DNA of 63,571 nucleotides, counting the filler, from Octopus bimaculoides (Eukaryota), in the NCBI RefSeq assembly GCF_001194135.2. It is 5 parts of 4 records of this genome, joined end to end, with 100 filler letters (N's around TTAATTAATTAA, not from the genome) between each part and the next. Parts side by side here need not be neighbours in the genome. Positions count along the whole stretch, not along the records: positions 1 to 16,033 come from NC_068983.1; positions 16,134 to 47,442 come from NC_068989.1; positions 47,543 to 54,576 come from NC_068987.1; 2 more parts are not named here. The stretch is one strand, 5' to 3'. Under the pieces are notes generated by a model. The model was not told where the DNA came from and made no database searches. It was given only the letters and a program-made list of their open reading frames with translations. Position numbers and translations under genes: made by a program. Each line of letters opens with the position of its first letter. Within the stretch, counting starts at the first letter, position 1. This document shows positions 15,329-52,237 of this stretch, one piece after another.

Positions 15329-16033
15329 TCAAACGGATGGCGATATTTATGGCACACACAATCGCCATCCGTTAGAGAAAAAAATTGTAGTTTGGAATCA
15401 GTAGTTCTTTGACTGCTATTTCTAAATTCTCAGTATGTTGGAGAAGCAACTCATGCTAATCCCTGTATATTTATGATTATAAATGCTTTTACCGATAAAG
15501 GTTTTTTTCATACTGAACTACTTGGGAAAATTGTTAATTATTAATTTTATTACTAATTGACGATCCCCTGCCCTATATCTGTATATTTTATATTGATGCC
15601 TCTAATTGGATGGTTAAACTGTAACCCTTTATACAGGACTTTTTATACGGGACTATTTGTGGCGCACATAGAATGGATTCTTTGGGGTGAAGTGTTTGAA
15701 CTCACTAGCCGATGAATTTCGTAAGTGCCTTACTCACGTGGTTTTGATGTCGGATGGTCAAAATTCCTGTGAGTTATATAGACACTTTCAAATTTATTCG
15801 AATATTGGGCTGAAGATCGGAATAGAGTACCTTCATACTCTTAACCGTGAAACGTCGTACTCAATTAACTAAAGGCAGGTTTGTTTTTGCTTTTCTCTTC
15901 TGTTTTTTGTTCTGTGTGTGCCATAAATATCGCCATCCGTTAGAGAAAAGATTTGTAGTTTGGAATCAGTAGTTCTTTGACTGCTATTTCTAAATTCTCA
16001 GTATGTTGGAGAAGCAACTCATGCTAATCCCTG
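15329..16033 (+). mobile_element. Hammerhead-carrying non-autonomous tandem element (retrozyme-like / Penelope-derived), unit about 568 bp
   Basis: 15361-15473 repeats at 15929-16033; hammerhead lies between the copies; short inverted piece at 15332-15360; no ORF; runs into the scaffold end. Confidence 0.65.
15804..15865 (+). ncRNA. Minimal type I hammerhead ribozyme motif
   Basis: Stem I ATTGGG/CTCAAT; core CTGAAGA (15810-16); stem II CGG/CCG plus AGAGTA/TACTCT with a U-U closing mismatch; GAAA (15849-52); stem III AC-gtc-GT; cleavage triplet GUA (15857-59). Confidence 0.8.
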
Positions 16034-16133
16034 NNNNNNNNNNNNNNNNNNNNNNNNNNNNNNNNNNNNNNNNNNNNTTAATTAATTAANNNNNNNNNNN
16101 NNNNNNNNNNNNNNNNNNNNNNNNNNNNNNNNN
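16034..16133. other. Artificial assembly spacer (44 N, TTAATTAATTAA, 44 N)
   Basis: Exactly 100 bp with a six-frame stop linker. Confidence 0.95.
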
Positions 16134-17879
16134 AAACTGATGGGAATCTTATAATAATTCTGTTTGATGTGGGATGGGAAGGGAGAGGGGAGGTGAGGGA
16201 GAGTTGGTAGTGAGTGAAAAGTGTAATTTTTTTTAAGTAAGTTTTTCTTCCATTACTTAGCCCGTCTGCAACGCTTTCACGTGATTAATTGAATGGAAAA
16301 GCAAAGAGCAGAAGAAAAAGGAGATAAAAAAATGGTAACTCGAAGAGTAAGAGAGAAAGAGGGAGAGTGATGTGTATTAAGTCTATAAAATTGTGCATAA
16401 AGTATATAAAGTGTTTATATAAAGTGCATTAAGTAATCAATTTCTTTCACTTTTCAATGATTAGCAGATGGGTGACTATCTTTTGATACAGACACAACAC
16501 AGGCTATGCATTCGGGTTTTGGGATTAAATGTTTCGTGAAATATTCACGGATCTCGCTAGAATACAAAGAAATTGATGTAATTTCCTCAAATCCTTTTTA
16601 TCCAAGTTTATTTTATTTTGTCCCACGAATATTAATTGTACTTTAGATCTTTACAGGCTTTTAGTTTATCTTTTTTTACTGTATCTTGAAGTAGAAGCTG
16701 AAACCATGGTCTTTGAAGTGCCTTCTGCACCTGTGAGATTGATGTCATCGACCTACGCTCCCGCCCGAACTCTTGTTATATCATTCGGCATATTCGCACC
16801 CATGCCCTATCTCTAAACTTACTCTACTTTTTTCATACACTCTTACCAACTTTTACCCAACTATCCTTCATCTTGCCCCCAGAGCCCATCTGGTCGTCTG
16901 GTCATGTTGTCATCATCATCTTTATCTTTCTTTCCAACTTAACACTAATTACCTTCATCCACACTTGTACAATGTAAGCAGCCATGTATCTCCTCTGCAG
17001 TAAGAAACCTGTTCCGGTCCCTTCCTTCATATTCTAACCTTTTATCACTTAGCATAAAACTGCCTCCTTCTCTAGTGTAGCCCCGCTCAACTGATGGGGG
17101 CTGTTAGTCTTGCGAACTACCTGGCGACTTCACTAGAACTGATATCACGAAAATAGCACCCAGCACAATTTGTAAAGTCGTTGGCATTAGGAAGGGCATC
17201 CAGCTGTAAGAATTAGGTCAAAGTAGACATTAGTACAAAACGTAACCCTTTGACCTGTTCGATCTTGTCAAACCATCCAACCCATACCAGCATGAACGAC
17301 GTACATAAAAATATGATGATGACGATGACGACGACGACGACAACGATGACAACGACACCTGCAGGAGAGATATGAGTCGCTTAATTTGTTCACAAGTTTA
17401 GTCTGAGATGAGGTAAACTAAAAATCAGATTATTCTGAGAACTTAAAATGATTTTGAACCTGCGCCAGTTCATTTAATAATGTAACACAACGATTTTTCA
17501 ATCATTTTCGAACCACGGCAAACAGATTGAGGTGCTAAAGGTGTTATGGCACACCATGAACTTGAAAACAGTTTCATTATTTAAAAAAAAAAAAAAAAAA
17601 AAAAAACGAAAATTGGTTTAAAACAGAAATGGATTTCCGCATCACATTTTGTCACAAATCGACCGATCAGGTGCATTAAAGTCGGTCAATGCTTTTTGCT
17701 GTGTCTTTTTGTTTATTTTGGTGATCCTAGCATTTTCTGACTAAGCACAAAAACCCGCAACATACATAGACCTACTTCTATATCTAGGCACAGAGATTGA
17801 GAACGTCCGTTTCAACTGCTTTTTTCTTTCATTTTGCTCATTAAATATTCCTGTTATGGTGATCCTCCTCTTCCTCCTT

Positions 17880-18468
17880 GCCAGATGCCTTTACTAAGCA
17901 GAATTATGTCTTTGCCATTTGACCCTTCTAACTTCTTCTCGGCCACCAAAAGCTAGAATAAAGATAACAGACCTCCAACGAAATCTATTGTTCTCAACAA
18001 TATGCCTATCAGTTCTGCCTGGTTTTGGATAATTATAAAAACAAGAAATCCGTAAGCCAATGCTAGTTAGTGAGAACCGATTCTGGCTAACCGGCTGAAC
18101 AAAACGCCATCACTAAAGGAAAAGGCATAAAGGGACAATTATGGTAACTCACCAACGAAGCAGTTGTTTCATCCCACCACTCTCACTTTAAACTAACTCA
18201 CTTTCTTTTCTCTGTAACATTACCATATCTCTCTATATATATACTACTATGAGATCGTGTACACACATATACAGGCCGAAATTAATTATTTTTACCTCGC
18301 ATGCTTTTCCATTTACTAATTATACATATCAACCCGTCGTGGTTTTGGATATATAAAAAGTAACGGTAAATAAATATCTCTTTACAACTTCAATCACTGT
18401 TCTTCTTCCATTTTGCATACTGGCAACCAGCACCTTAACAACAACCGTTACAATTGGTGACCCTCGAC
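17880..18468 (+). mobile_element. LTR-like repeat followed by tRNA-Trp-type primer binding site
   Basis: Ends ...CCGTTACA-AT-TGGTGACCCTCGAC (18455-18468; canonical TGGTGACCCCGAC). Homologous to 22811-23150, 57960-58134 and 59091-59540. Confidence 0.6.
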
Positions 18469-19479
18469 TGCAACGAAGTACTAACCGTTACAACTGTTAT
18501 CCTTAATTACTCTCATTAACACAATACTACAATTTAAAGGGAATGTATTGGCGAATGAATCTTCAAGGTATGTTACTTGTGTCATTAATTACTTGTATTA
18601 ACACAAGACCGCAATTTCATATAAAGCGAAATATCAACATAAATATTTTAAGTAAAAAGTTTCTTATTCTTCACTTTACTAGAAGTAATAGCTTGTCCTA
18701 TACTTTTACAGGTGTGATAACTTGCCCTGTACTTTTCCAGGTTGATAATCTTAAGAATATTATTTTTCATGCTCGCATTTTTCCATGTAATCCATGATTT
18801 TTCCAGGCATTGCTGTTATAAGATAATTAATAATGTGTCAATTAATAATTTAAGATTTTACCTTATAAAATACTGAAAAATGATATTTCAATTTTTCCAT
18901 GTAAGTGATGATAATATTTCAATTTTTTTTTCATGTTTAATTTAAATATATGTTGTGATTGAATTATTTGAAATTACCCATCCACACCAAATTAATGACA
19001 GAGATTTTTACCATGCTGTTGGTACCACTATGGCTCACCAAAAGTTACAAACAACAAGACCCTCAAAGCATCAGTTACCAGGTTCACCTTAAGTAACCTA
19101 ATTTTGTAATATTAGGAGGTCACAGGAATTCATTCAACGAAAAAAAAATTTCCAATGATTCCGGGATCGTGGGGGAAGGGGGAACGACCACACTTCATTT
19201 TTTTCGAACCAAAATAAGGGATTTGCAGCATATTAGGAGGTCAGGGTACTTGATTCCACGCNNNNNNNNNNNNNNNNNNNNNNNNNNNNNNNNNNNNNNN
19301 NNNNNNNNNNNNNNNNNNNNNNNNNNNNNNNNNNNNNNNNNNNNNNNNNNNNNNNNNNNNNNNNNNNNNNNNNNNNNNNNNNNNNNNNNNNNNNNNNNNN
19401 NNNNNNNNNNNNNNNNNNNNNNNNNNNNNNNNNNNNNNNNNNNNNNNNNNNNNNNNNNNNNNNNNNNNNNNNNNNNNNN

Positions 19480-19831
19480 GGTTCCAGTTGATCCGATCAA
19501 CGGAACAGCCTGCTCGTGAAATTAACGTGCAAGTGGCTGAGCACTCCACAGACACGTGTACCCTTAACGTAGTTCTCGAGGATATTCAGCGTGACACAGA
19601 GTGTGACAAGGCTGGCCCTTTGAAATACAGGTACAAGAGAAACAGGAAGAAAGAGTGAGAGAAAGTTGTAGTGAAAGAGTACAGCAGGGTTCGCCACCAT
19701 CCCCTGCCGGAGCTTCGTAGAACTTTAGCTGTTTTCGCTCAATAAACACTCACAACGCCCGGTCTGGGAATCGAAACCGCGATCCTATGACCGCGAGTCC
19801 GCTGCCCTAACCACTGGGCCATTGCGCCTCC
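19480..19831 (-). mobile_element. SINE family B
   Basis: Reverse complement of 27185-27567; 3' end lost in the gap. Confidence 0.9.
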
Positions 19832-22159
19832 ACTCTAGAACATTACACACAATGGGCGTGTGATTTATGTAGGGGGATACTTTGGCTGCTATTTTTAGCG
19901 TGTCGAGCGACCCGGTAGAGACTCTTTCTTTGGTTCGATTGCGTGATGAGATTTTTTTACACATATATGTAATATGCATATATATCATCGGCAGAAGTTA
20001 GAGAGTAAGTCAAAAGCTGAGAGTTTCGTGTATTGGCGCTTAGCAAACACGAATTTGTCCATTGTCACTCTGTAACTTCTGACGAAATAACTTCTAAAAT
20101 ACAAAACTTTGTCAAAAACGTTAAGAGTAAACCCTGTTCTATGTGATATATTTTACCAGTATCGGAAGTTTGAAAGTTCTTTGTTTAAAAAAATTAATTA
20201 AATAATCTGTACGTCTAACTGAATAGATCCGAAATAGATGAAAGGCAAAGTCGACCTCGGCGGAATTTGAACTCAGAACGTAAAAACAGACGAAATACCG
20301 CTTCTAAAATACAAAATTTTATCAAAAACGTTAAGATTAAACCCTGTTCTATGTGATACGTTCTACCAGTATCGGAAGTTTGAAGGTGTTTAGTTTTTTA
20401 AAAAAATTAATTAAATAATCTGTACGCCAAAGTCGACCTCGGCGAAATTTGAACTCAAAACGTAAAGACAGACGAAATACCGTTAAGCATCTCACTCAGC
20501 GAATTAACGTTTCTGCCGGATCACCGCGTTAAAATTTAAGCATTCATTTTAGAAATATATTCTTTATTCTTATTACTTAGGCATTACTTCTTACTTTCTC
20601 ACTTACTGACATTAAATTCCGTAACATTTTACCTCATAACTGTTTTTCTACTAATTTTTGTTCAATGCGACTAGCGATTCTAAATTCTTCATGCTTTTTT
20701 TATCATTTAAGCCGAAGAAAAGTATACTTTTAATTTAAAATTTAAAAAATTATGTTAAGTGAAGATGAATATCTGCCTTACTGCCCACCTGCCCATGTGG
20801 TGAAGACTATGTTGAGTATCACATTTGTAAGAGAAGCAGTTATTCTACCAACATGTGCAATTTGAACGCCCTACGGAGGTTATAAAGAAAAACGGTTACG
20901 ATATCCGTTGCTTTACTTTCAATAAAATTCTAATAATTCGTTGTTCAGTTGTAATATATAAGCCCTGATCCAGCAGAATTTATTACTAAAACTGTTCCAA
21001 CTGTGACCACTCTGTCGTTATTTAGGCTTGATTTTTGTTTTTAATCTTGATGATGAGGGAGATGATAAAAAGCATAGACATTCACTTTCTTGCTAAACAT
21101 GTAAGTTGAATTGGACCATAATCCGGTCGCTCTCTGACAGGTTTATCGTCGAGCCTGTGACAGTAGAGACCTCCAGCGTTCTCGGAACACGAGAAAACAA
21201 TCAGGGTATCTCAAATGCGAGCCCCGTGAGTCAGAGTGGTTGTTCCAGTGCATCTCCCTCGCCATCTATCGGGACAACGGCCTTTTTCCAATTTTGTCAA
21301 CTGCGACCATAAGTTGGTTTGAATTACAGGACATTGCATGTTCCACTCCTAAATGTAAAGTTACTCCAGAGTTATCCCAGATACATAAATGTCAGTTCAT
21401 ATATATATATATATATCAGCCCCTTCACCCTTATTCGTTCATTCCACTGTTCGTTCTTTCGTTCCCCGTCGCTCACATTTCCTTGCCTTCTCTTCTTTCC
21501 CTCCACTTTTCACTTCACTGTGTCCCTGTCATTTTTCTCGCCCCTCCCTAATTCTTTTGTCCCTTTGCCTCTACCTATCTCTCTTCTCTTCCCAGTGACC
21601 GGTGTTCGGCCAAGCGTAATCTTTCTTTCTTGGCCGGCCGTTGTACGTGTAACATCGTTATTCCTCTCTGTGCCTGTGAAATCTTGTATTCCTGCCTTAA
21701 GGCCTTATTTCCACAACGCCCGCTTAATTTAATTCGTCGTTAATCGAAAGACATCTGTTGTTATGTCCTGTTTTATTATTTTTATAGTATTTGTGTAACA
21801 TTGTTCGTTTTTTTTTCCGTCCTTGTTTTTGTATACATTCGCTGCTTTCTTCCAAGGAATCTAATGCTCTTAGCTTAGTTTTTCCTTGGGGCTGGCCAGA
21901 TTGGAGCAATATCGAGAATAACCAGCCGAAATTGCAAGGATAATCTGGATCTCGACTGAAGAGAGAAAACTCCGAATGACCTGTCCGTGTTTCCTTTGTA
22001 TCGTCAATCTGTATGTTTTGTCCCTTTCGTGCATCACCTAACTGTCTGGATGTTTTGTATTATTTATACATACATATATANNNNNNNNNNNNNNNNGCAG
22101 GCATGGCTGTGTGGTGAGTAGCTCGCTTACCAGCCACATGATTCTGGGTTCAGTAGAGG

Positions 22160-22810
22160 AGGAGGATTTAGAAGAACGAGGGTGAAATGGAGAGATTATT
22201 CAGAGTGGAGGAGGGAAGAGAAGAGGTACCAGCAGTGGAGCAGGAAAAGGGAAAACAAGTAAGAAAGCCCAAAAAATATCGATGGAATTTTGTGACATAT
22301 GCGAAAAACAAGGAAATAGAACGGAAAATAATGAAATTTATAAGGTTGAAGCTGTATTCGGAGAATGTGAAGGCCATTGTGGTCGATAGGGAGAAATACA
22401 TCAGGCTGAGAGATATGTGTGGAAGGGGAATTGATCCGCCAGGAGTAGCGGTGGAATTCGATGAATTGCCACCAGTAGTAGAACTGAAATAGCTCGAGCT
22501 TTTATGAAATCCTAAAAAATAGAAAATTGTTTAATGAAAAAAGGAAAAAAAAAAGGAAAATTGTTTTGTTTTTTAAAAAGAGAGAGAGATAAATGATAAG
22601 GAAAAAAAACAAAGGAAAATGAACGATTGTAAACAGTGTATTAAACGTTCAAATGGTACTGCATGGGAGTGGGCCCATGCAGCCATTTCATTTTCATTAT
22701 ATAACATCATTTTCATTCCTTTTATGTTCTTTGTCCCCACTGTGATGTTCTGTCTGTCCTTGTTGTGTTCCCTCTGTGTTATGGCCGTAGTGCCAAATAA
22801 AGAAAGAGTT
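22160..22810 (+). mobile_element. Probable 3' end of a second LINE
   Basis: Purine-rich 101-aa ORF (22187-22492), A-rich tract, then UTR ending TGTCTGTCCTTGTTGTGTTCCCTCT...AATAAAGAAAGAG like 59040-59090. Protein not recognised. Confidence 0.45.
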
Positions 22811-23190
22811 AGTCACTTTGGTAACAACTCAGGTAGAACGAAGTCTGGCTGACTAGCTAGAACAACTATGGTATCTCGCCAACGAAGCAGTTGTTTCGTC
22901 CTATACTCTCTCACTCGTACTAGCTCTAATTCTGTTCTCTTACTACATCATCCTATCTCTCTCCGTAATTACTAATAAACAATGACGAGAACACCAACAC
23001 AAACAAACATCTATCTTTACTTCGCATGCTTTTGGATTTTTTATCACCTGTCCGTCGAGGCAAGGTATTGTATAATGTAACGGTAAAAATTAATATTTTC
23101 TTAAAAATTCATGCATTGTTCATCTTTCACATCCTTCAACAGGAGTAAACAATGGACATGTTTCGTTGTTATTTGACCTCCTCCATAAAA
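22811..23190 (+). mobile_element. Partial copy of the LTR-like repeat
   Basis: Shares CAACGAAGCAGTTGTTTC with 18150 and TTACTTCGCATGCTTTTGGATTTT..ATCACCTG..CGAGGCAAGGTAT with 59370-59420. Confidence 0.7.
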
Positions 23191-23876
23191 CATATTCGAT
23201 TCAGTTGACAAAACTAAAAGTGATATACATGCATTATACATACATGCATGCATACATACATACATACATACATACATACATACATACATTCCCGACCACA
23301 AACACGGATTATTTTTTTAAAAGTAAAATGTTGACAGTGACTTCGGAGTTTCGACTTGCAATATAGAGAGGAACGTTCTCCGTGCTTACAGCATGAATGG
23401 TAAAGTCTCTCAAATGTTCTATACTGAGTTAAATAAAACTTTGATCGATGAGTTTACCTAAGCAATGATTGTAAAGTTTTGTCGTAGAGGGAGTTTGTAT
23501 CTACTAATTGGTTGGATTATTGTTATAGTGTAGATCCCCATTCACTTGTCTGTTATTGTCGGCACTGTAATATTCTTGTCGCCACTATTATGTTGTGGCG
23601 GTATTCCTCGTCTTACTATCTTTGACTCATCTATCGTGTTATCGCTGACAACTCCGCAAATCAATGACTTTGAAACGTCTATTTTGACGGTAACTCGAAC
23701 TCGCATATATCGCATAACTGACATTGACTCCTACTAAGAACTCGCACAACGACTCTACTGCTACTGACCTCCAACAACGACTTTGTCACGTGGGATAGGC
23801 AGTACCATTTTCACTACAACAATTATCTCATCTTATCGAGATCTTTTACTTATACTTTATGGGTGTGGTGTGTGTG

Positions 23877-23907
<31 letters not shown>

Positions 23908-24302
23908 TGCTGCCGTATTTGTCTCTAGTACTCAGAATGCTCTCAAAGGTTTTTCCTCAATCACGTTTATCGACAATTATCTAAGACAGTGTTAACGTTC
24001 TAATTAAGTATCAAAAATTTAATTATGAAAACTTATGTGGTGAAGAAAAGACAACGTAAATTTAATTACTAGATTTATTTTTCAATTTCAGCAAATACAG
24101 GAGACAGCTATGTTTCAGTTTCATCGACATCAACAGCGAAGCATATAATTCAATAGACACCGGAGTTATCTCCCGTACTTTCTGAAAGGATTAAAACAAC
24201 ATTAGTCATTGAGCTAATGTTCTCTTTTCCTCACTGCAAAAGTATTTTTAATTAGATTTCTTTAAGCCTACTATACTAAAGTATTTTAACACATGATTGT
24301 TG

Positions 24303-24907
24303 GGATCTTTTTTAAAACGGGGGCCACATTTTTCATTAACGAAACACTTTGAAACTTGGAACACTGGTAGAATGTGTCATATAAAACATCTTTTTCTCTT
24401 AGTCTTCTTTAAAAAAAAAGAAATCCCTAAGTTATTCCATGTTAAAGTTGTCGTATTTCTGTAATTTCAACCAATCACTGACGTCCATTCAGCCGATATA
24501 CATTAAGTGCCGACTACGTAAACAAACGATTCTGAAACAATTCTATCGGTGATAGGGTTAGGGTTAGGGTTAGGGTAAAACAGCAAATTTAAAAAGAAAA
24601 AAAGCAAATAAAACGAAGAAGAAAAAAGAAAATGAAAAAAGCAAATTTAAAATGAAAAAAGCAAATAAAACGAAGCTATGGCTTAATCAGCCAAAGGAGT
24701 AAATGTAAACAACTGAATACTTGTCAGTGATTGGTTGAAATTATTGAAATAAGACAATTTTTTACATGAAATAAATTCGAATACAAAAATATTTTTCTGT
24801 TCTATAACACAAAATAGATAAGTATACGAAGTTTGAAAGTCTTTCGGTACCAAAAACACTACGTAAAACATTAATGAAAAATGTGGCCCCCGTTTTAAAA
24901 AAGATCC
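24303..24907. mobile_element. MITE with perfect 37-bp TIRs and 8-bp TSD (Merlin- or hAT-type), internal (TTAGGG)4
   Basis: TIR GGATCTTTTTTAAAACGGGGGCCACATTTTTCATTAA at 24303-24339 and 24871-24907; TSD GATTGTTG at 24295-24302 and 24908-24915; telomeric repeats 24553-24576. Confidence 0.9.
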
Positions 24908-26383: not shown

Positions 26384-26456
26384 TGCATAATATTATTGAC
26401 ATCATAAGAATTTTTATAAATTTCAAAAGATCAAGAAATAATTCTTTTTTGGGATG

Positions 26457-26634: not shown

Positions 26635-27184
26635 GAGCCAATGTTCCATGAAAGAATTATTACGTTTTGCGGGGAGGGGCGAATGAGTGACAAACTTACG
26701 GACTGCGCAGAGTGGCACAAAATCTACCTACGTCACTGTTTGACTGGAGAAAATTGGGCAATACACAATCTTGTAGTCGTGTTACGCTTAACACGTTGAA
26801 TAATTTTCAACAGAAAAAAATTATCATTATACAATGTTAATTAATAACACTAGACATTTTTAATATACATAATGTGCAATTTGTATGCATGTTCTGTTTG
26901 TAAATCAAAAAATAATGAAATTATCCGAAGTTAAGAGCTGAAAAATTTACATAGATTTAGGACAATGTCGCCAGATACAAGTGAAATAATCTCTTGGAAA
27001 ATTGAGGGACGAAAGTTATCTTACTGAATGTGGGCCTAAAGACGTACTCGCCGGCTACAATAAGAACATTCCCTATAGAGAGCTGAACTCCAGGGTTTTT
27101 ATAAGCCCACCAAAACGTTCTAGAATGAAGCCCTTAAGTTCAAATAATAAACTTTTCTTTTAGTCTTCCACCACTTACCACAAT

Positions 27185-27567
27185 GGAGGCGCAATGGCCC
27201 AGTGGTTAGTGCAGCTGACTCGTGGTCATAGGATCGCGGTTTCGATTCCTAGACCGGGCGTTGTGAGTGTTTATTGAGCGAAAACACCTAAAGCTCCACG
27301 AGGCTCCGCCAGGGGATGGTGGTGAACCCTGCTGTACTCTTTCACCACAACTTTCTCTCACTCTTACTTTCTGTTTCTGTTGCGCCTGTAATTCAAAGGG
27401 TCAACCTTGTCACACTGTGTCACGCTGAATATCCTCGAGAACTACGTTAAGGGTACACGTGTCTGTGGAGTGCTCAGCCACTTGCACGTTAGTTTCACGA
27501 GCAGGCTGTTCCGTTGATCGGATCAACTGGAACCCTCGACGTCGTAAGCGACAGAGTGCCAACAACA
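27185..27567 (+). mobile_element. SINE family B (tRNA head, about 385 bp), full length with 11-bp TSD
   Basis: Head GGAGGCGCAATGGCCCAGTGGTTAG...GGTTTCGATTCC; TSD ACTTACCACAA at 27173-27183 and 27568-27578. Confidence 0.9.
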
Positions 27568-32544: not shown

Positions 32545-32568
32545 CAGGAAGTTACATGTGACGTCACA
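32545..32568 (+). promoter_or_regulatory. Clustered ETS (CAGGAAGT), E-box (CATGTG) and full CRE (TGACGTCA) motifs just upstream of the G-alpha ATG
   Basis: 12-bp palindrome TGTGACGTCACA at 32557-32568, ending 15 bp before the ATG; motif match only. Confidence 0.3.
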
Positions 32569-32583
32569 ACACACTTTGCCAAA

Positions 32584-33045
32584 ATGGCTTCATGGTTGGG
32601 TTCGTGTTTTCTCTCTGAAAATGCTAAAGTACAGAGAAGTCGAAGTCGGAAAATCGATCGTATGTTGGCTCGGGATAAGAAAAATTCACGCTTGATTGTT
32701 AAATTGTTATTACTAGGTGCCGGAGAAAGCGGGAAAAGTACTTTTCTTAAGCAAATGCGTATAATTCACGGTAATGACTTCAATGAAGATTCTCTCCGAG
32801 AATACAAACCGGTTATTTATATGAACATAGTAAAAGGTATGAAAGTCCTGATCGATGCACGAAACAAATTAAAGGTTCCGTGGGAAGATCCTCAAAAGGA
32901 AGAATATGCCAATCGGATATTTTCGATCGAATCTGCCCAAGATATGGATGAAAGTGACTTCCTCCCTTATGTTGATTGTATCGAACAGTTGTGGCAGGAT
33001 AAAGCAATTAAGCTAACGTTCGATAGAAGGAGAGAATTTCAGCTG
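32584..33045 (+). CDS. GNA12/13: Heterotrimeric G protein alpha subunit, G12/13 (concertina) class, first coding exon (aa 1-154); rest of gene not in this scaffold piece
   Basis: ORF MASWLGSCF...KLLLLGAGESGKSTFLKQMRIIHG...NIVKGMKVLIDARNKLKVPW...FDRRREFQL. P-loop GAGESGKS plus TFLKQMRIIHG and RRREFQL match G12/13 rather than Gq (GTGESGKSTFIKQ). Phase-0 donor CTG|GTAAGT at 33046. N-terminal Cys8, no Gly2. Confidence 0.95.
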
Positions 33046-35642
33046 GTAAGTTAGTTAATTCATCGATGTTTATATCAATTATAAATGTTGTTGTCTTTCT
33101 AGTACTTATGCTTGTTTCAGAAATTATTTCAGTTTTATTTAAGTCTAGTAAATACAAGTTTTGCTGGGGTCTTTTTTTTCTAAATTGTTTTTGTTTAGTG
33201 AGTGTCCCTAATGTTTTCCTTTATTAATCATACCGCGCCATCCAAGTACTCATTGTTAATTTGTCCCACTGTCGTTAATTTTCCTCTTTTCTTTTTCTTT
33301 TGCTTCCTATCGTTTTATTTTATTTTATGTTCAATCCTTATTACTAAAATAAATAGACCGTGTGTTGATCAATAATCCCAAACTCGTATCTTAATATGTT
33401 TATACTCTTTATTCTATAACTAACTCCAACTTCAGCTAGATTTGAGAATAAAGTGTCGCTAATTATACTTTTAGAAGTTATGCATTTAGTTTTAAGTCTC
33501 GTAATACTTTACACGCTGTTACTCATAAACAATCTCGGTTTAAGGCGATTTTATCTAACTCTTATAAACTTGTGCGCGCTGTATTGAAAGACTAGTTTTG
33601 AAATATTACTCTGTTGTAATCATTTGCCCAGCTAGGCAAAGCTTGTCATATCAGCGTTACTGCTTTGTTAAGCATGTTGTTTCTTCCATTGAAACATAAT
33701 ATACACACACGCCTAGCTTCGTCTTCCCTCCCACTGTTACTATACTTGATAATTTGGCGAATACTGACTGGGTGGCAGGAAATGTTTTACTTGACTCGGT
33801 AAAAACTATTTCGTTCGTGTAATAAATACAGTTTATTTTACGCGTATTTAACATAACGTGTCAATTTTCCAACAGTATCGGTTCATAAGCATGCCTGCAC
33901 ACACACACACACACTTGAATAAGTTTTCTGTTGTTAGATTATAGGAAAATGTTTGAATTTCGTTTAATCAATTTTCAGCATTTTTATTTTTATTAAAAAT
34001 GCTAACTGTTTACATTATATCAATTGCTCTCCTCCCATGCACACGCTGGAATAAGTTTTTGTTTGAGTTGAAATAACCTATAGGAAAATGTAATGAATTT
34101 AAACTAATCATCTTTTCAGTTTTAAAAAAGCTGTTTATATATTAAATATAATTGCATACTCACACTCAAATATACTACAATAAGTTTTCGTTTAGTTCAT
34201 TTATAGAAAAATGTATTGAATTTAGCGGACTTGAATTTAAACTAATCGACTTTTTCCCCCATTAAAAGAAGAAGAAAAGTTGGGGGAAAACTTTATATTG
34301 AATATATTTTTTGTGGTATGAAATGTGGGTATTGGAAGTGACTGAGCCTGCAGTGCGATTAATTGTTTTTAGTATATACGTAAAACTTTTTTACATTCCA
34401 AACGTGCCGATTCTGTCGTTCATCGAGGTGAGTCGAATCTGTGTTAATAAAATACTGCAACAGATTCAATCAATTATACCCGTGGTTCTTATCCTGGTGG
34501 GGGAGAGACTTCAGGATTCCAGGGGGCGGGTATTTAGGGGTTTCCTACGGAGAAAGTTGTTCGTAAGCTGGAACGCCGCCAATTTTTTTTTTTTTATTTA
34601 TTCGCAATATTTTTTTTTTAATATTTATGAGTGAAGTTTTGCGTGAATTTCTTTTATTACACCTGTCCCGTAAGACAGGTGTAAATTCTGATCGGTGGAC
34701 TTTCGTAATAACTATCACTACCTCACAGTGAAGGAAACGTACAAGCATTTAGTGGGTTCTTCACCCACCCTCCACCTCAATTTTATCTTTTAACATTTTT
34801 GCATTCTGTGCCCTTTTCCGATCAATTTTTACTATCATACCTGTCACACGAGAAAAATACTCAGTTTTGGAGTAGTTATCGTTTTATCATGTGGAAGAAA
34901 AGGAGTAGTGAATGGCGACGAGCATAAAAATTTGTATTTTTTGTAAAAACTTATTTCAGAATCGTAATTTTCATATGATTGACACACGAAAGAAAGAAAA
35001 GACATGAAGGTAAACAAACCCACCCGATTTCTAGTCTGTTTCCGTCCCCATGAAGTAGTGACAGTCACTCCGAAACTCCGCCCGATTTATTTACTTTGAA
35101 GTTGATTTTAATGATGCTAATGTGAAATAATTGTGTTTCTGATGTTATTGCAATACAATTTCTTTTTCTTCACAAATGTGGGGGGAAAATAGGATGGTGA
35201 GCTGTTAACGGGGTGAGGAATACAGAGGGGGTAAACTGGTTGAGAAACTTTGAATTAGTTTTGCGTCAGAATGGTATCGGTTTTATTTTTCTGTTTTGTA
35301 TATCTTTCGGAATAGCTCCTGAAGTCCTTTCTTGTTTAGCTCTCAGATCAGCCTTGACTGAAAACTTGTGACTAAACGTATTTCTGTCGTAAACAACCTG
35401 TCTTTTTATACATCTAATGTGTTCTCGTTTCACAACTGTATATTTTGGCAACTATTTTTAGCAGGTCGAGTGACCGTGTAGATGCTCCCCCGTTTTGTAT
35501 CTATGTGTTTCCATGGAGACAAGACTTCCTTTTGTACCCTACAAAAAAACACCAGGGAGGAAGTCTTTCCCCAGGTTATTTTCAAAAACTGTAGTTTTGT
35601 ATGCTCATGATGAAAGTCGTATTTATTTTTGCTAGAAACTAG

Positions 35643-35799
35643 AGTAAATTTTCAGATTAACAAATGCACGATTTCACTAGGGTGTTAGGGTTAGGGTTTT
35701 AGGGTTAGGGACGGAATTCCCTCACCCTAACACCCTAACCCTAACCCTGACCCTAACACCCTAATGAAAATCGTGCGGGTGTTAATCTGAAAATTTACC
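35643..35799. mobile_element. 157-bp fold-back MITE made of inverted TTAGGG/CCCTAA arrays
   Basis: Arms GTAAATTTTCAGATTAAC...GCACGATTT.A.TAGGGTGTTAGGG and the reverse complement; flanks GAAACTAG / GAAAATAG (7 of 8 identical). Confidence 0.8.
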
Positions 35800-36725
35800 G
35801 AAAATAGTAAGGTATATCAATGTATAAAATTGGAAAGAAAAAAAAATCAGGTGGTAATTCGAACTCTTTCAGTGGTTGGAAGAAACCGTCTGAGTAGTTT
35901 GTTGCTTTTTATCTGTATTCAGTCCTGGTCGAACAAAGGTATTTCAGCCGTGACCATCCCCTTCTTTTTTTTTTTTTTTTTTTTTTTTTTTGTAACTGAA
36001 CCACTTACCGATCTTCCGAAATAGATAAATTTGTGCTGTATATATTGAACAGTGTCATAGATCCAGTTAATATATATATATTGCTAGGCACCTGGTTTCA
36101 GGTTCGGTCTCACCTTGTGAGTGAATATTGAAGACAGAAACTTTGTGGATGCTTATTGTGTGTGTGTGTGGGCATGTGCATGCGTGCATGTTTTTATGTT
36201 TGTCCCACCACATCACTGCTTCACAACCGTGTTGGGTTGTTTACGTCCTCGTAACAAAGCGGTTCGGCAAAAGTAACTGACAGAATAAGTACATGACATA
36301 AAAAGAAAGATACATATTGCTGTCAATTTGATGGATTTAAACCCTTCAAAGCAGCTCACCAGTATAACCGCAGTCCAGTGTTACAGCAATGTTCAACTTG
36401 CTCCAATATGTATGCTTGTGTGTGTGTATATATATATATATATGCAGAGATAGATAGATAGATAGATAGATAGATAGTGTTTTTAACACAAAATGTCTTT
36501 GAAGAGATTTTTCCCTCTGACAAAATCTACACGATCATGCTTTTCACTGGTATATATACATTTAGTATGATATGCAGATGGCAATTACAACATAGTGTTA
36601 CACATGCTGCAAGGGTGGATACTCTACCAGAATCCGATATATTTATATTTTAGGTAGTAGTAGTATGGAGGCATGTGCTGCTATAGTATGATGCTGCATC
36701 TGCCATTTGTTAGTTATTCCATACT

Positions 36726-37112
36726 CTTATTTCTTTATTGCCCACAAGGGGCTAAACATAGAGAGGACAAACAAGGACAGACAAAGGGATTAAACCGATT
36801 ACATCGACCCCAGTGCATAACTGGTACTTAATTATCGACCCTGAAAAGATGAAAGGCAAAGTTGACCTCGTCGGAGTTTGAACTCAGCACGTAAAGACAC
36901 CAGGCTTCTTTTAATTTCCATCTACCAAATCTACTCACAAGGTTTTGGTCGGCTCAAGGCTGTTGTGGAAGATACTTGCCCAAGGTGCCACACAGTAGGA
37001 CAGTTGGTCAGCTTGAGGCTATAGTAGAAAACACTTGCCCATGGTACCACACAGTGGGACTGAACCCAGAACCATGTGGTTGGGAAGCAAGCTTCTTACC
37101 ACATAGCCACGA
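36726..37112 (-). mobile_element. SINE A monomer followed by two stacked SINE C heads
   Basis: Family A tail at 36726-36900; family C pieces at 36905-37112. Confidence 0.75.
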
Positions 37113-40087: not shown

Positions 40088-40122
<35 letters not shown>

Positions 40123-41924: not shown

Positions 41925-41965
<41 letters not shown>

Positions 41966-44900: not shown

Positions 44901-47234
44901 CAGGATCTTTATGCTCCGAGTTCAAATCCCATCAAGGTCAACTTTGCTTTCTACCTTTCTGGAGGTCAGTAAAATAAAGTACCAATTGAGGTCTTGTAAT
45001 TTATGTTAGAAATCAATACTAATTACATCCAAGTTTAAGTGTTTAACTGAATTCACTGAGAAAGCAATGTTTTGGCCCACTCATGTTCATGATTGATATA
45101 GGGCTAAGGTTCTATGATTTGTAATAAATTACAGAATATCTTTTGAGTTCTGGATATTCATGTAGTTTATACAATAATAATTCAAGACATTTATGAACAA
45201 ACCTTGTGTGTGCGTAATGCATGCAAGAGTGTGTGTGTGCTGTCTTGTCTTAAAACCAGTATGATAATGATGATGTGTTGGTGTGTGCTTGGAATTCAGT
45301 CCCATTGTGCAACATATTGGGCAAAAGTACCTTCTAAGTGGATTCAGTAGATAGAAACTGGAAGAAGCTCATTGTGTGTGTGTGTGTGCATGTGCTGCCT
45401 TGTCTTAAAACCAATATGATGATGATGTGTCTGTGTGTGACTATGTATTTACATGTGTACATTTGTGTGAACATATGCAAGCATACATATGTACCTACAT
45501 ACACACACACATATATACTGTATTTCCTTAAATACAGTGCAATCTCAGATATGATAATGTAACTTCCAGTATTTTTATACCTAAAAATCAGTCATGGTAT
45601 TTTTATCTTTGCACTTGACTAATGGTAATCCCCAAATATAGTTGCCGAGTTTTGTTATAAATTTCTTCCATTCGTCACAAGTGTGTTTCCATGCAAACTT
45701 ATGTATGCTCATATATACCTTTCTACGTGTGTGTGTGTATGTGTGTGAAAAGTATAGCAGAAAACATCACATATTTTACATGGCTCTTGGTGTGGTGCCA
45801 GTGCAGTTTGGCCAGTGATGACAGTGTCTTCAGGTAGCTAATATTTTACCTTTTTTCTCCCACTTACCATCATAGTTTTAACTGGTGTACACCACATCTT
45901 AGCTTTTGAAGCTTTTGTCAACTTCTAAAATGTGGATTTTTTTTTTTTTTTTTGCTGTGCCTTCTAAATACACACATATATGTATGTACATATATATATA
46001 TATGTATATATGCACACAAGCTCAAGCATTCATGTATACAAGCTAATCAGCATGCACTCTAATACACTTGAGATTCTGGACTAAGAAAATATAAATCCCC
46101 CATTGGCAACTTCTACATATATACAGAATAACAATTGAATTTAGGGAGGCAAAAAGGAGATTGCAAGCTTTTGAGTGCTGCATTAATCATATTACTCGGG
46201 TAACATCTTCTAAACAACAGTGATAAGAAATGAGTACATCACAAAGGTTAGAAGCATTATTATTATTATTATTTTGAACATTCCAAAGTAAAGTGATGCT
46301 GCCTGTTGTCATTTGACATCTTCTCTTCAATGCTCACTGCAGCTTGTTTCTGATGCCAATATCAACATTTGATAAAATAATCATCACAACCTAATATGTT
46401 GAAAGGGCTTCTGCTTTTACATATCACATCGCAGGACATTCAGTCAGTTGAGGAAATATGCTATTTTAGTTTGGTATACTGTTATAAATTTCTTCTATGA
46501 TTTCAAGTTTCTTATATTTGATATTCTGTAGAGATTTGTTTACAGTTTTCCATCTATGGATGTTTAATTCCTATGGCCAAAGGGAGACTGATTTCAAAGT
46601 GCAAACCCAGTTGCAACTCACTCTCTCTCTGAAACTCTGCCTCTCTAACACTCTCAGTCTATAGCTGTGCCTCCCTATCTCTCTCAGTTTATAGTTCTGC
46701 CTCTCTGTCACTTTTTGTTTTGCTCTGACTCTATCATGCTCAGCTTTGCTTTTCCAGCTTTATCTTTCCTTCTCTCAGACATTCTTTCTCTCTCTCCTTC
46801 GATTGTTTTGATTTTAACCCTATCCTTAATAGATTATAATAAAATACACTGATTATATATATTTTTAATTAATTTTTGAAAGTAACTATGAATTCTTAAG
46901 GAATTTAATATGGTAACTAATATGGTAAACAATTTTATTATGTTCTACATTCAAATTCTATCAATTTTGTCTTTCATCTTTTCAGTGTCGATATAAGGAA
47001 CCAGTTGAGCACTGGGACCTATGTAGTCAACTTACCTCCTCCCCATAAAATTGTTGACCTTATGCCAAAATTTAAAACCATCATCATCATTATTATTATT
47101 ATTTATCTTCAATCAACATTTCAACATCCATATTCTTATGCTTGCATGGGAATATGGATGTTGAAACTTCCTACCACACAGCCATGTCTGTGGCTATTAT
47201 TATTATCATATGTGTGTGTGTGTGTGTATATATA

Positions 47235-47442
47235 TCATCATCATCATCATCATCATCGTTTAACGTCCGCTTTCCATGCTAGCATGGGTTGGACGATTTG
47301 ACTGAGGACTGGTGAAACCGGATGGCAACACCAGGCTCCAATCTAATTTGGCAGAGTTTCTACAGCTGGATGCCCTTCCTAACGCCAACCACTCAGAGAG
47401 TGTAGTGGGTGCTTTTACGTGTCACCCGCACGAAAACGGCCA
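47235..47442 (-). mobile_element. SINE-like family E with (GAT)n tail
   Basis: (CAT)n CGTTTAACGTCCGCTTTCCATGCTAGCATGGG; related copies at about 17090-17345, 37145-37292 and 42255-42400 (+). Confidence 0.75.
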
Positions 47443-47542
47443 NNNNNNNNNNNNNNNNNNNNNNNNNNNNNNNNNNNNNNNNNNNNTTAATTAATTAANN
47501 NNNNNNNNNNNNNNNNNNNNNNNNNNNNNNNNNNNNNNNNNN
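47443..47542. other. Artificial assembly spacer
   Basis: 44 N + TTAATTAATTAA (47487-47498) + 44 N. Confidence 0.95.
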
Positions 47543-48000
47543 ACAACCACCACTACCACAACCACCACTACTACAATCACCAACACCACAACCACCACTA
47601 CCACAACCACCACTACTACAATCACCAACACCACAACCACCACTACCACCAACACCACAACCACCAACACCACAACCACCAACGCTAACACTACAACCAT
47701 AACCACCACAGCAATGTAATTACTCCCACCACCGCCACTCCCAATACCACTAACCCCACCGATACAACCACCACTGCAATCAACATCGCTACCACTACCA
47801 ACAGCACCATAACCATCAATACCATTCTCGATACATTCACTACCACCGTAAGGATTATCAATACCACCGCCACCAATAACACTACTACTCCTAACAACAG
47901 CAACAATATAATCACCACCACAACTACTACTAATATAATCACTACCACTACCTCCGTCAACAGCAACAAAAGCAACAATGATAACAACAACAACACCAAA
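47543..48000. repeat. Degenerate (ACC/ACT/ACA)n trinucleotide tract
   Basis: Directly visible; gives the poly-Val ORFs. Confidence 0.9.
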
Positions 48001-48566
48001 AAAGTAATAAAGAAATAAAATATCTTTCTGAAAGCTTGAGTGAACATCGCCATATCAGACAAGTGTTGTTTATAAATTTTTGTATTTATATTTTTTGTGA
48101 AGGAATTTTTTTTTTCGTTTTCTTTTTCTAAAATGTAAACAGACGAACGAAAGCTTCAACTATTTATGTTTTATATCGAAGTTCACCTATTGCACATCGA
48201 TGCACATTAAGAATGTAATTTCATTTTTAGTGATATTAAAATAATTAAGGAGGCAATGCTTCTAAAGTTCTTTAAACTAGTCATTTTTAGGGTAAAGGCC
48301 AAATACTGAGAGTTGCAAGCCAAGAAATTGTCTCCCTTCTTTTACATAGCTTTTTTATTTTATTCTATTTCATTTTATTTTATTTTATCCTTTATATTTG
48401 GCTGATAGACAGACAAGATAGCGGAATTCCTAAAAGGTTTAGAATATTTTCGTGCGTTTCCTACCAAGTGTACGGATTATTATTTTAAACACGTTGCTAC
48501 TTGGGAAATAGAATATTCTCAACTGTCATCCGAACGGTTGTTCTCCTGTACCCTGTCACCATAACC

Positions 48567-48786
48567 TCAGTCCTTTAGCATTCAGATTTTTTTTGTCAAA
48601 TGTAATGCTTATGTATTGACATTATTTTGACTTAATCAAGCATTATCTTGTTATTTCAAGGATGTGATTGTTAATTTATAGAATGACATTGTAAGGTAAG
48701 TGTAAGAGGTTGGATCTAGTCGGTTTCAATATAAACAAGTAGAACATTTAGGCATGATGTGGCCAGTTTAAATACTAAAAGGTTAA
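48567..48786 (-). mobile_element. TTAA MITE family 2
   Basis: CCTTTAGCATTCAGATT...TACTAAAAGGTTAA, reverse complement of 38118-38338. Confidence 0.65.
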
Positions 48787-50322
48787 CGAAATCATGGGCA
48801 AACTGCGGCAAGCAGGACATTTTGAGTAGCACGCTAACAAAAAACTACTTGTATTTTTTTTTAGTAGTACAACCCACCTGATGTTAAGCCATGTCACATG
48901 TGGTCCGCTTCTCGAAAATGGTTGCTCGTATCTGCTTTAATGTATTCGCGATCAAGTAGGACATCAAAATATTCTTTCTCATTTCGGCACAAGACCAGCA
49001 ATTTTAGCGGGAGCATGTAAGTCGATTACATCGACCCTAGTACTTGATTATTATCGACTCCGAAAGGATAACAGCGAAGTTGACGATCTAAGCGGTATTT
49101 GAACTCGAAATGTAAACGGAAAGCCGTTAAGCAGCCAAAACTTACTCTAAACCATTTAAAAAAAAACAAACTAAAAACAAAAGTATTATATCAAGGTTCA
49201 AGAATGAATGTGTGGGAAGAAGTTTACTGCCTAACCACGTGGTTTTGAGTTCAGTCCCACTGCGTGGCACATGGACAAGTGTATTCAGCTATAGTTCCAG
49301 GACGACCAAGACCTTGTGAGTGACAGACGAAAACTGAAATCTTGTATGTGCGCATGTGTGTTTTTATGTCTATCCCCACACCGTTTTACAATTTTTGTTG
49401 GTTTGTTTACGTCCCCGTAATTTACGGTTCAACATAAGATACCGATAGAAATAAGAGACTTTAAAACATAAGAACTAAGGTTGATTTGTTTGACTAAAAC
49501 CTTTCAGGGCGGTACCCCAGTATGGCCGCAGTCCAGTGACTGAAACAAACGAAAGAGAAAGAATATCTAAGACCGAACAACGAGTTTCGTATAAAATTTG
49601 ATGGACATTGGTTGGAATCGTAAGCACTTGACTACGGTGCGATCTCGTTACATCCTGTTTTACTCGACAAATTTTAATTTTCCCCAACTAATTATCTATA
49701 AAGACAATAATTAAATTCTGCGACCAATCACTGATTACAGTTTCGGATAGTTTCCTGCATTTTCTAAACAACTCAGCGATTATTCCACACACGTTGCTAT
49801 CTCTGCCATAATCTAGACTTTTAGCTAGTTTTCGCATAGAGAACACATTTTTAGTTGAACTCTTGTCACATCACACATTGTGAGTTCTTTTGTTCTCCGA
49901 AATTAATGATCCCATCGTATTAGGATTACGTATACACACGAGTACATTTATTCACACATGTACACACACAGTTAGTAATATATGCATGAGCACGTGTGTG
50001 TGTGATTGCGTATTGAAAGAATAACAACGGAATACTTAATGACGAGGATACTAAATACCAAATGTAGAGTCAAGTTAATAATTTTTGTTTTCACTTTGAT
50101 TTTAAAGTTTTGCCTGGTGACAACTTTGATTGAAAAATCGTAAGAGAAAAATAAAAGGTCCACTCAAAACAGATTTTTTGATATGTGTAGGTATCAAGCA
50201 TGTGCCATCCGTAATTACTCAGGGTAGATTGTTGGTGACATTTATGTAGAAAAACGCACAAAAAAAAAGCGAAACACTGGCGCGCGACTGAGTTGTAGAC
50301 AGATTTACTTCTGCCTTTATAG

Positions 50323-50408
50323 CACGTAAAGAATACGTTGTCATCGGAATGTACGCGGAACGTGTACTACAGCAGTATTATGGCTAGCTTAAATACTTGG
50401 ATTGAAAA
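50323..50408 (+). CDS. Candidate internal coding exon of an unidentified gene (HVKNTLSSECTRNVYYSSIMASLNTWIE)
   Basis: Acceptor TTTACTTCTGCCTTTATAG, donor AAA|GTAAGG; only one frame open; ends in phase 2. No homology recognised. Confidence 0.35.
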
Positions 50409-51209
50409 GTAAGGACGAATTATGCCTACCTAATCTATAAAAAAATAAAATATCTTGCATTTTATACATAGCAATCAGAGTAACCTTCATGATTTTATTG
50501 AATTAGTTGCATATTTTGTCAAAAGAGGAAAATATTGCAATCGATCTATTTTATCCAAGGTAAGCACTGCCTACCTTGCCTACCTAGACGGCACGTCCCT
50601 GGTAGGTATGTATATCAATTTGCAAAATTTAATTCATATAAATCCAGTTTCTACACCCTTCACTGATGTATAATATATATTTCACATACGCACAACAGAT
50701 TAGACTGTTTTCCTTTTAATATATTTACTACATTCCCCGTGCATGTTTACATATAGTGAGAGATGCGTGGCTTTGAATTGTTTTGACATGGTGATCTCAT
50801 ATCCATATACACAGCGCACCTTGCATCTTAGGCCCAGTTAGAATTCTCTTCAGATTGAGTAGCCCATCTCACTCAAAAGGTCCCTGAATAAGGTTTGTTT
50901 AAGGATGGTGAACAAAACACCCATGTTTCCAGAAGTGAGTTATTCAAATCCCAACGAATTTCTCTCAACACATGGCTATAATGCTCTCCCACTACTTCTG
51001 CTCGTGATCAGAGATGCACATATCGTCAGTCACTAAGGGACATGCTCAACTGGTTAAGGTCAAATAACTGACAAGCAAATCTGTGGTATTAAGCAGAATA
51101 TTTGCTGTAGCTCATATTTCATACCAAGAAAAAACAATGTACATAATAACACTTCCAATCAGTTAAGATCAAAAGCCATGAGAACCACTACCAAGTACTT
51201 CATCAGGGC

Positions 51210-51269
<60 letters not shown>

Positions 51270-51661
51270 CATTAGGGCAGTGNNNNNNNNNNNNNNNNNN
51301 NNNNNNNNNNNNNNNNNNNNNNNNNNNNNNNNNNNNNNNNNNNNNNNNNNNNNNNNNNNNNNNNNNNNNNNNNNNNNNNNNNNNNNNNNNNNNNNNNNNN
51401 NNNNNNNNNNNNNNNNNNNNNNNNNNNNNNNNNNNNNNNNNNNNNNNNNNNNNNNNNNNNNNNNNNNNNNNNNNNNNNNNNNNNNNNNNNNNNNNNNNNN
51501 NNNNNNNNNNNNNNNNNNNNNNNNNNNNNNNNNNNNNNNNNNNNNNNNNNNNNNNNNNNNNNNNNNNNNNNNNNNNNNNNNNNNNNNNNNNNNNNNNNNN
51601 NNNNNNNNNNNNNNNNNNNNNNNNNNNNNNNNNNNNNNNNNNNNNNNNNNNNNNNNNNNNN

Positions 51662-51696
<35 letters not shown>

Positions 51697-51700
51697 TATA

Positions 51701-52237
51701 TGCTGTGAAAATCAGAGTCAAAAGATCCTCTAAATAAAGTCGCCAATCATTGGGAATATAACAAGCACAACAGAAATTGAGCTACAAGCAAAGAAATTAA
51801 CCATCTCAGTAAAAGCCTTTAGAATGAGGAAATAGATATCTCTGTATCAATTCATTTCGAATTTTGAGACCCTACCACTCTTAATTCTCATCAGCAGATC
51901 TTAATATACGCAGGGTTAAAGCTTTGCTCGTTTCAGTGTGCTTCGTAGCCGTTGAAAAGCTAGCGCCATATTCAAAAACGGTGTCAATGTATAGAATTAC
52001 TAAATGAATAGATATTCGAAAATATTTATATAAATATTATTATTAATTGTTATCATTAGTAAAATGAATAATAACAACAATAATGTAAGTGGCCAGCGAG
52101 CAAAAGCCGATAAATGGCAAATCTAAAATTTTATAATTATAATAGGGCACACGAGATGCCAGCATTGCTGTGAAAATCAGAGTTGAAAAGTCCTCTAAAA
52201 AACACCAATCACTGGGAATGTAACAACCACAACAGAA
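51701..52237 (-). mobile_element. Hammerhead-carrying non-autonomous tandem element, unit about 465 bp
   Basis: Diverged direct repeat TGCTGTGAAAATCAGAGT...CACAACAGAA at 51701-51775 and 52166-52237 flanking the minus-strand hammerhead; no ORF. Confidence 0.6.
51841..51898 (-). ncRNA. Minimal type I hammerhead ribozyme motif
   Basis: Minus strand reads TCTG CTGATGA GAATT aa GAG tggtagggt CTC aa AATTC GAAA T gaattg A TA CAGA: stem I TCTG/CAGA, intact core, 5-bp stem II, cleavage triplet AUA. Confidence 0.8.

What the first reader, a model, noticed from the sequence alone, without database searches (positions are those of the whole stretch)
15329..52237. Candidate family of cephalopod retrozyme-like elements that could produce about 0.5-kb circular RNAs
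Seen: both hammerheads share architecture (A-rich symmetric internal loop in stem II, distal GAG/CTC stem, palindromic stem III). Both are followed by CTAAAGGC and then a T-rich TTTGCTT...TTCTGTT tract, and both sit in a repeat-spacer-ribozyme-repeat unit with no ORF. A third copy of the post-ribozyme segment opens the window (1-170), so a ribozyme may lie just upstream of base 1. Known: tandem type I hammerhead repeats in coral, mussel and salamander are processed to small circRNAs. Inference: head-to-tail arrays of these 568- and 465-bp units would release unit-length RNAs, probably mobilised by Penelope RT. I cannot tell whether this family is already described, and each locus here shows only one ribozyme.
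Basis: inference. Interest (0 to 1): 0.75.

Follow-up and report, generated by a model that had tools for sequence, protein, structure and literature searches.

The report
Two hammerhead-bearing Penelope-type mini-retroelements
The two spots are copies of two unrelated, protein-less jumping repeats that each carry a predicted self-cutting RNA motif and were likely spread by a Penelope-type enzyme, a kind of element already known from many animals, and the RNA data examined show no sign of abundant RNA circles.

Summary
Both type I hammerhead motifs are real, but they belong to two unrelated ORF-less families, not one. Family A (568-bp unit) is young and common; family B (465 bp) is old, decayed and nearly absent from RNA. 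The shared CTAAAGGC is a coincidence (1 of 24 B copies). Family A shows compensatory stem changes. Its insertions carry Penelope (PLE) signatures: scattered 5' ends, an inverted copy in 54 of 119 loci, and two fixed 3' ends running into (TA)n, like Hydra-type PLEs in the same genome. True dimers are rare (6 of 119 loci, 4 with both cores intact) and no trimer was seen. 46 of 48 copies run through the cut site, so the template was uncut or re-ligated RNA. Repeats within one locus are homogenised (3.4% against about 7% between loci). RNA reads of A come from both strands, mirror the DNA copy profile and show no ends at the cut site; the library type is unknown, so circles are not excluded. No autonomous partner was found in 160 PLE loci. 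These are new members of the known non-LTR retrozyme / non-autonomous PLE class; the scan noted similar families on other DNA of this genome.

The parts
1..173 (+). Family A copy, unit positions 521-568 then 1-124, ending in (TA)n (153-197); its 5' part is hidden by an assembly gap
   Evidence: 86-90% identity to the unit; 1154 N upstream; TA array
15329..15360 (-). Inverted piece of family A at the 5' side of the insertion (reverse complement of 15913-15944), next to a 10-N gap and (TA)n
   Evidence: 31 of 32 identical; sequence
15361..15928 (+). Family A unit, 568 bp, no ORF, GC 35%
15805..15864 (+). Type I hammerhead motif A: stem I 15805-09/15860-64, CUGAAGA 15810-16, stem II with U.U base and 4x4 loop, GAAA 15849-52, near-palindromic stem III, predicted cut after 15859
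15929..16033 (+). Start of the next A unit (positions 1-105); in the genome a 1475-N gap and then (TA)n follow, so the array length is unknown
   Evidence: 98% identity; gap
51701..51775 (-). Terminal repeat of family B (unit 1-72) running into (TA)n 51662-51701
   Evidence: 84% identity; TA array
51773..52237 (-). Family B unit, 465 bp, no ORF, GC 33%, old family
51838..51899 (-). Type I hammerhead motif B: CUGAUGA 51894-88, 5-bp stem II with AA/AA loop, 10-nt stem III (a perfect palindrome in other copies, two mismatches in the self-duplex here), predicted cut after 51845
52250..52291 (+). Inverted piece of family B (unit 173-214) at the 5' side of the insertion
   Evidence: 95% over 42 nt

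Best explanation
The two loci are copies of two unrelated ORF-less repeat families with type I hammerhead motifs, likely non-autonomous Penelope-like retroelements (non-LTR retrozyme type) copied in trans by a Hydra-type Penelope RT/GIY-YIG protein. Inferred cycle: the protein nicks a (TA)n target and starts reverse transcription at one of two internal sites about 185 and 295 nt past the ribozyme cut site. It copies through the ribozyme on uncut or re-ligated RNA and usually stops early, often adding an inverted copy. This leaves mostly 0.3-1.4-unit stumps and occasionally dimers. The short palindromic stem III suggests that cutting needs two ribozymes. Family A was active more recently; family B is a decayed relic. 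Circles may be a rare intermediate but are not shown.
For: Shown: A has 3109 first-look candidates (40 scored) and 176 exact 24-nt ribozyme motifs against 0 for the reversed control. Core intact in 85 of 99 A copies, with only N7 varying freely (A 72, U 16, G 6 among the 94 CUGAnGA copies). On 80 distinct copies 91% of cells pair, 85 cells change on both sides (shuffles 25.8, 0 of 500 reach it) and slid controls pair 33-48%. Of 107 3' ends not at gaps, 57 lie at unit 105-126 and 39 at 218-237; 87 of these 96 run into TA-rich or microsatellite DNA. B shows the same two clusters (10 and 14 of 37 ends). Inverted piece in 54 of 119 A loci and 7 of 27 B loci. 46 of 48 non-gap 5' ends lie upstream of the cut site, spread over 750 nt. 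ORF-bearing Hydra-like families in this genome also have long stem II hammerheads and two 3' ends 100-130 nt apart in (TA)n. U.U under stem II occurs in 14 of 26 Hydra-clade rows of File S2 of PMC8557442 (my count). Literature: tandem/inverted anatomy (PMC8557442); internal initiation on unprocessed RNA (PMC11167929); retrozymes as PLE derivatives.
Against: No autonomous element sharing the A or B end was found in 160 fetched GIY-YIG/PLE loci, a small sample of 2,390 to 12,499 candidates per search. U.U is not exclusive to Hydra: one Poseidon-like locus, L067, has it too. Cleavage was not tested. Covariation counts sequences, not events, and pairs with a change on both sides (8 against 5.8, 33 of 500) are not significant. 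Part of the copies were picked by a motif inside the ribozyme. The spacing between the two 3' ends is longer than the 30-40-bp tail in the papers read.
Confidence: 0.8

Rival explanations
1. Family A is a full retrozyme in the sense of Cervera and de la Pena: dimers are transcribed, cut twice, ligated into 568-nt circles, and the circles are the RT template (rolling circle).
For: Six of 119 loci hold two whole ribozyme spans in direct tandem, four with both cores intact. Direct repeats within a locus differ by 3.4% (157 of 4661 sites, 30 loci), no more than inverted copies do (2.9%, 163 of 5543; Fisher p 0.23), against about 7% between loci, so repeats are reset in each lineage. The unit folds well as a circle (z -5.9 against 40 shuffles), with helices enclosing the ribozyme 97-99% paired over 37 copies.
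Against: RNA runs X21-X23 (one study, 6% of each read): 53-87 reads per million, both strands about equal, 66-70% running on into unlike flanks, depth 200-460 on the tail but 2-8 mid-unit as in the DNA run, no pile of ends at the cut. No trimer in 119 loci. Young homogeneous master arrays, re-priming on one RNA or gene conversion would also homogenise repeats. The helices were chosen by the folding program on the same copies, and a linear precursor can form the same fold.
Confidence: 0.25
2. The units are only truncated 3' ends (pLTRs) of an autonomous Penelope element that was not found, and have no life cycle of their own.
For: Most copies are short stumps. The assembly has many gaps beside these elements. 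The partner search covered few loci.
Against: Copies that extend far enough upstream run into the previous unit, up to 2.2 units, never into a shared foreign sequence (30 loci). Five PLE protein probes found no ORF placed upstream on the same strand in 157 fetched A loci (119 distinct). Several subfamilies keep the same unit.
Confidence: 0.1
3. Chance motifs in AT-rich satellite-like DNA.
For: Neither isolated motif folds better than shuffles (z -0.96 and 0.40); Rfam gives no hammerhead hit.
Against: Descriptor chance rate 0.017 per window; free N7 with fixed core; compensatory changes; dispersed insertions with fixed 3' ends.
Confidence: 0.02

Closest known systems
Metazoan non-LTR retrozymes (Cervera and de la Pena 2020, PMC7229834; read: matched passages, the mussel section and the discussion)
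   Same: Type I hammerhead in an ORF-less, low-GC, head-to-tail unit; PLE proposed as helper.
   Different: Units of 568 and 465 bp exceed the 170-400 nt reported there; arrays here reach only about 2 units; no abundant unit-length RNA was seen; cleavage untested.
Non-LTR retrozymes as non-autonomous PLE derivatives (Li, Clavereau, Pollet, bioRxiv 10.64898/2026.07.22.740005; read parts 1-3 of 5, supplements closed)
   Same: Units of 51-972 bp, many monomers, few repeats; 'active' defined as two tandem units with whole ribozymes, which 4 to 6 A loci meet.
   Different: That study sampled vertebrates, insects and a coral and linked families to pLTRs by homology; here no parent pLTR was found. 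Only 1 of their 9 dimers cleaved in vitro.
Hydra-clade and other EN+ Penelope-like elements (Craig et al. 2021, PMC8557442; read passages, Files S1 and S2 in part)
   Same: Partial tandems, inverted 5'-truncated copy, (TA)n target, hammerhead near the 3' end, U.U under stem II, palindromic stem III; an octopus Hydra family (Hydra-1_Obim) is listed.
   Different: No ORF; five A/B motifs are absent from the held supplement text (long lines may be cut); 3' ends about 105-130 nt apart instead of a 30-40-bp tail.
Anolis Poseidon element PAc (Frangieh et al. 2024, PMC11167929; read parts 1-2 of 4)
   Same: Two internal RT start sites downstream of the ribozyme, AT-rich target, unprocessed RNA as main template, no RNA-seq ends at the cut site.
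   Different: PAc is autonomous and of the Poseidon clade, with a short tail.

Membership tests
Non-LTR retrozyme | Type I hammerhead motif in the unit | tested here: met
   core intact in 85 of 99 A and 11 of 24 B copies
Non-LTR retrozyme | No protein-coding capacity, GC under 45% | tested here: met
   six-frame translation and tblastn blank; GC 35% and 33%
Non-LTR retrozyme | [quoted passage not shown] | tested here: met
   A: 6 of 119 loci, 4 with both cores intact. B: 3 of 27 loci have two direct cut sites, cores not scored one by one. Not seen at the window's own loci; locus A ends in a gap.
Non-LTR retrozyme | Unit of about 170-400 nt (2020 paper) | tested here: not met
   568 and 465 bp; inside the 51-972 bp range of the 2026 preprint
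Non-LTR retrozyme | Abundant unit-length linear and circular RNA | tested here: inconclusive
   Read-through pattern for A; 26 and 28 reads in about 12 million for B; library strandedness and poly(A) selection not on record
Non-LTR retrozyme | Self-cleavage | not testable with these tools
   needs an in vitro assay
Non-autonomous PLE | Partial tandem with inverted 5'-truncated copy | tested here: met
   54 of 119 A loci, 7 of 27 B loci
Non-autonomous PLE | Two fixed 3' ends (tail) and AT-rich or microsatellite target | tested here: met
   spacing longer than the canonical tail
Non-autonomous PLE | 3' end homologous to the pLTR of an autonomous PLE | tested here: inconclusive
   none in 160 loci; small sample
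Hydra-clade PLE | Clade-defining RT and EN sequence | not testable with these tools
   the units encode no protein; only ribozyme style, target and 3'-end spacing agree

The most novel reading that the evidence does not exclude
Family A moves as a re-ligated 568-nt RNA circle that a Hydra-type Penelope RT reads by rolling circle from two internal priming sites about 105 nt apart, resetting its repeats to identity at each jump. It would be a compact, many-copy model for the open question of how Penelope tandems and pseudo-LTRs are regenerated.
Probability: 0.25. Interest if true: 0.55.

Novelty: new member of a known kind. Interest (0 to 1): 0.27.

Why it matters
It adds two families to a known class and ties one of them, by anatomy, to Hydra-type Penelope machinery. 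The useful part is mechanistic: in genomic copies the template was not cut at the ribozyme, and repeats within a locus are homogenised. Those two facts bear on whether retrozymes move as circles or as uncut tandem transcripts, which is unsettled. Without RNA evidence it does not establish a new circular RNA system.

Tried and rejected
Rfam scan: only miRNA-family matches below gathering score, mostly on microsatellites; no hammerhead. Shared CTAAAGGC and T-rich tract as a family signal: rejected. Autonomous partner: searched through PF01541, one ribozyme-less GIY-YIG family and two Hydra-like families; A or B pieces near those ORFs lie in flanks or on the opposite strand. An insertion ending at the cut site (L349, L356): gap or contig end; one B copy ends 13 nt past the cut (L035). 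Splicing inside unit A: no skipping joint. 'Goes back' joints in RNA are the ordinary tandem continuation across my reference end, not circle evidence. No RNA holder was listed among indexed runs; raw runs were laid instead. A looser descriptor hit at 11066 fails the strict one. Sequence look-ups in earlier findings were blank. Searches that found no description of these families: 'hammerhead ribozyme'+'octopus', 'octopus, penelope, non-autonomous, cephalopod', 'cephalopod, circular RNA, ribozyme'; listings only. Repbase and Dfam are not available here, and the preprint's supplements are closed, so the families may already be catalogued.
Full report
Observation. The window is a pack of five stretches. 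Locus A (15329-16033) ends stretch 1 and maps to G000 C3; locus B (51701-52291, minus) lies in stretch 3 and maps to C7. Each holds a type I hammerhead motif. A strict descriptor finds just these two, against 0.017 per shuffled window in 60 shuffles. Rfam lists no hammerhead at E<=1, and the isolated motifs do not fold better than shuffles. Units are 568 and 465 bp, with no ORF or PLE protein remnant. A third A copy covers 1-173; a 1154-N gap hides its upstream part.

Two families, not one. A and B have no significant similarity. CTAAAGGC follows the ribozyme in 1 of 24 B copies and occurs at two other places in the window. A has 3109 first-look candidates (40 scored), median pairwise distance 9.8% and minimum 0.4% over 119 pieces. 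B has 125 candidates (40 scored), median 16.7% and minimum 8.3% over 32 pieces. The core is intact in 85 of 99 A copies and 11 of 24 B copies.

The A ribozyme has been under selection (inferred). Only N7 of the core varies freely. On 80 distinct copies, 91.3% of 1178 cells pair and 85 change on both sides (shuffle mean 25.8; 0 of 500 reach it), while slid controls pair 33-48%. The count of pairs with a change on both sides, 8 against 5.8, is not significant, relatedness inflates cell counts, and a bulged stem I variant is misregistered in the alignment. Some copies were picked by a motif inside the ribozyme. Stem III is self-complementary in both families; a review states that such PLE hammerheads likely act as dimers (PMC6765202, passages).

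Insertion anatomy. I fetched 157 A loci, 119 distinct. Of 175 3' ends, 68 lie at gaps or contig ends and were dropped; of the other 107, 57 fall at unit 105-126 and 39 at 218-237, which is 174-195 and 287-306 nt past the cut site, and 87 of these 96 run into TA-rich or microsatellite DNA. In B, 10 of 37 ends fall at 100-117 and 14 at 232-256. An inverted piece is present in 54 of 119 A loci and 7 of 27 B loci. This is the anatomy described for PLEs (PMC8557442, passages).

The template was not cut. I anchored copies on a motif just past the cut site (281 matches, first 100 listed) and read 70 loci: the first 30, plus 40 picked by hand, mostly ones lacking the exact ribozyme motif, which should favour ends at the cut. 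Of 70 anchored copies, 22 end at gaps; of 48 others, 2 end at the cut site and 46 run through it, ends spread up to 752 nt upstream. So reverse transcription used uncut or re-ligated RNA (inferred). This matches the in vitro result that unprocessed RNA is the main PLE substrate and that RT starts at two internal sites (PMC11167929, parts 1-2 of 4).

Multimers. Eight of 119 loci have two cut sites in direct tandem and none has three. Two of the eight have a partial second ribozyme (L014, L020). Of the six whole pairs, four have both cores intact (L022, L285, L302, L027). The longest array read is 2.2 units with its 5' end at a gap. Direct repeats within a locus differ at 157 of 4661 sites (3.4%, 30 loci), inverted copies at 163 of 5543 (2.9%, 34 loci; p 0.23), and all 64 lie below the between-locus median of about 7%. 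Repeats are therefore reset within each lineage. A rolling circle would do this; so would young homogeneous masters, re-priming or gene conversion. The unit folds well as a circle (A z -5.9, B z -1.2; 40 shuffles each), and helices around the ribozyme are 97-99% paired over 37 copies with mostly G-U/A-U changes. A linear precursor can form the same fold.

Helper. The genome is rich in GIY-YIG retroelements (2390 candidates; 12,499 and 10,901 for two probes). The latter two resemble Hydra-clade proteins by eye against the alignment in the supplement of PMC8557442; no tree was built. They carry hammerheads with long stem II and end in (TA)n at two sites, +38-45 and +129-157 in one family, +51-59 and +187-193 in the other. 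Family A shares the U.U pair under stem II seen in 14 of 26 Hydra rows of File S2, though one Poseidon-like locus has it too. None of 160 fetched loci has an A or B end after its ORF, and five protein probes found no ORF upstream on the same strand in the 157 A loci. The helper is therefore inferred, not found.

RNA. Three raw RNA runs of one study, about 6% of each read, gave 1116, 907 and 612 reads on unit A (53-87 per million). Both strands are about equal, one read is 99% alike or better, 66-70% run on into unlike sequence, and depth follows the DNA contig profile: 200-460 on the tail, 2-8 at 15599-15636. No pile of ends lies at 15859. This fits read-through of scattered copies. Dips may also reflect divergence or filtering, and strandedness and poly(A) selection are not on record, so rare or tissue-limited circles are not excluded. 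B gave 26 and 28 reads in two runs, most in an AT-rich patch.

Comparison. The class is known: retrozymes of coral, mussel and axolotl (PMC7229834) and their reading as non-autonomous PLE derivatives with units of 51-972 bp (bioRxiv 10.64898/2026.07.22.740005, parts 1-3 of 5). Three searches listed no description of these families; repeat databases could not be checked. Five of six earlier notes on this genome describe similar hammerhead repeats on other DNA; sequence look-ups for A and B were blank.

Verdict. Real elements, two new families of a known kind, likely PLE-mobilised (0.8). Circular RNA as the mobile form remains possible for A (0.25) but has no direct support. Interest 0.27.

Noticed in passing
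window 32545-33051 (+): Exon of a G-protein alpha subunit gene (PF00503, E 3.8e-37).
   Followed up: partly
window 35644-35798: Fold-back element: TTAGGG-like repeats facing CCCTAA-like repeats around a short core, with inverted outer arms.
   Followed up: no
window 13405-13782, 19480-19834, 27181-27564: Three copies of a 350-380-bp dispersed repeat at 90-94% identity.
   Followed up: no
window 968-1404, 3386-3611, 6551-6785, 9382-9815, 36725-36899 and others: A very common dispersed repeat family, SINE-like by abundance only.
   Followed up: no
L156:2686, L187:2816, L202:2159: ORF-bearing Hydra-like PLE families whose hammerheads have unusually long stem II regions of about 58-59 nt, longer than those in File S2 of PMC8557442.
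   Followed up: partly
L108:3830-5620; L123: An abundant GIY-YIG element (3205 candidates) ending in (TA)n with no CUGAnGA core seen in its 3' region; a family A copy sits in its (TA)n end on the opposite strand.
   Followed up: partly
L067:2230, L080:1295: Poseidon-like PLE copies with short hammerhead motifs after the ORF.
   Followed up: no
L223, L228 downstream of the ORF: The 3' UTR of one Hydra-like family holds a variable number of ~110-130-bp tandem repeats.
   Followed up: no
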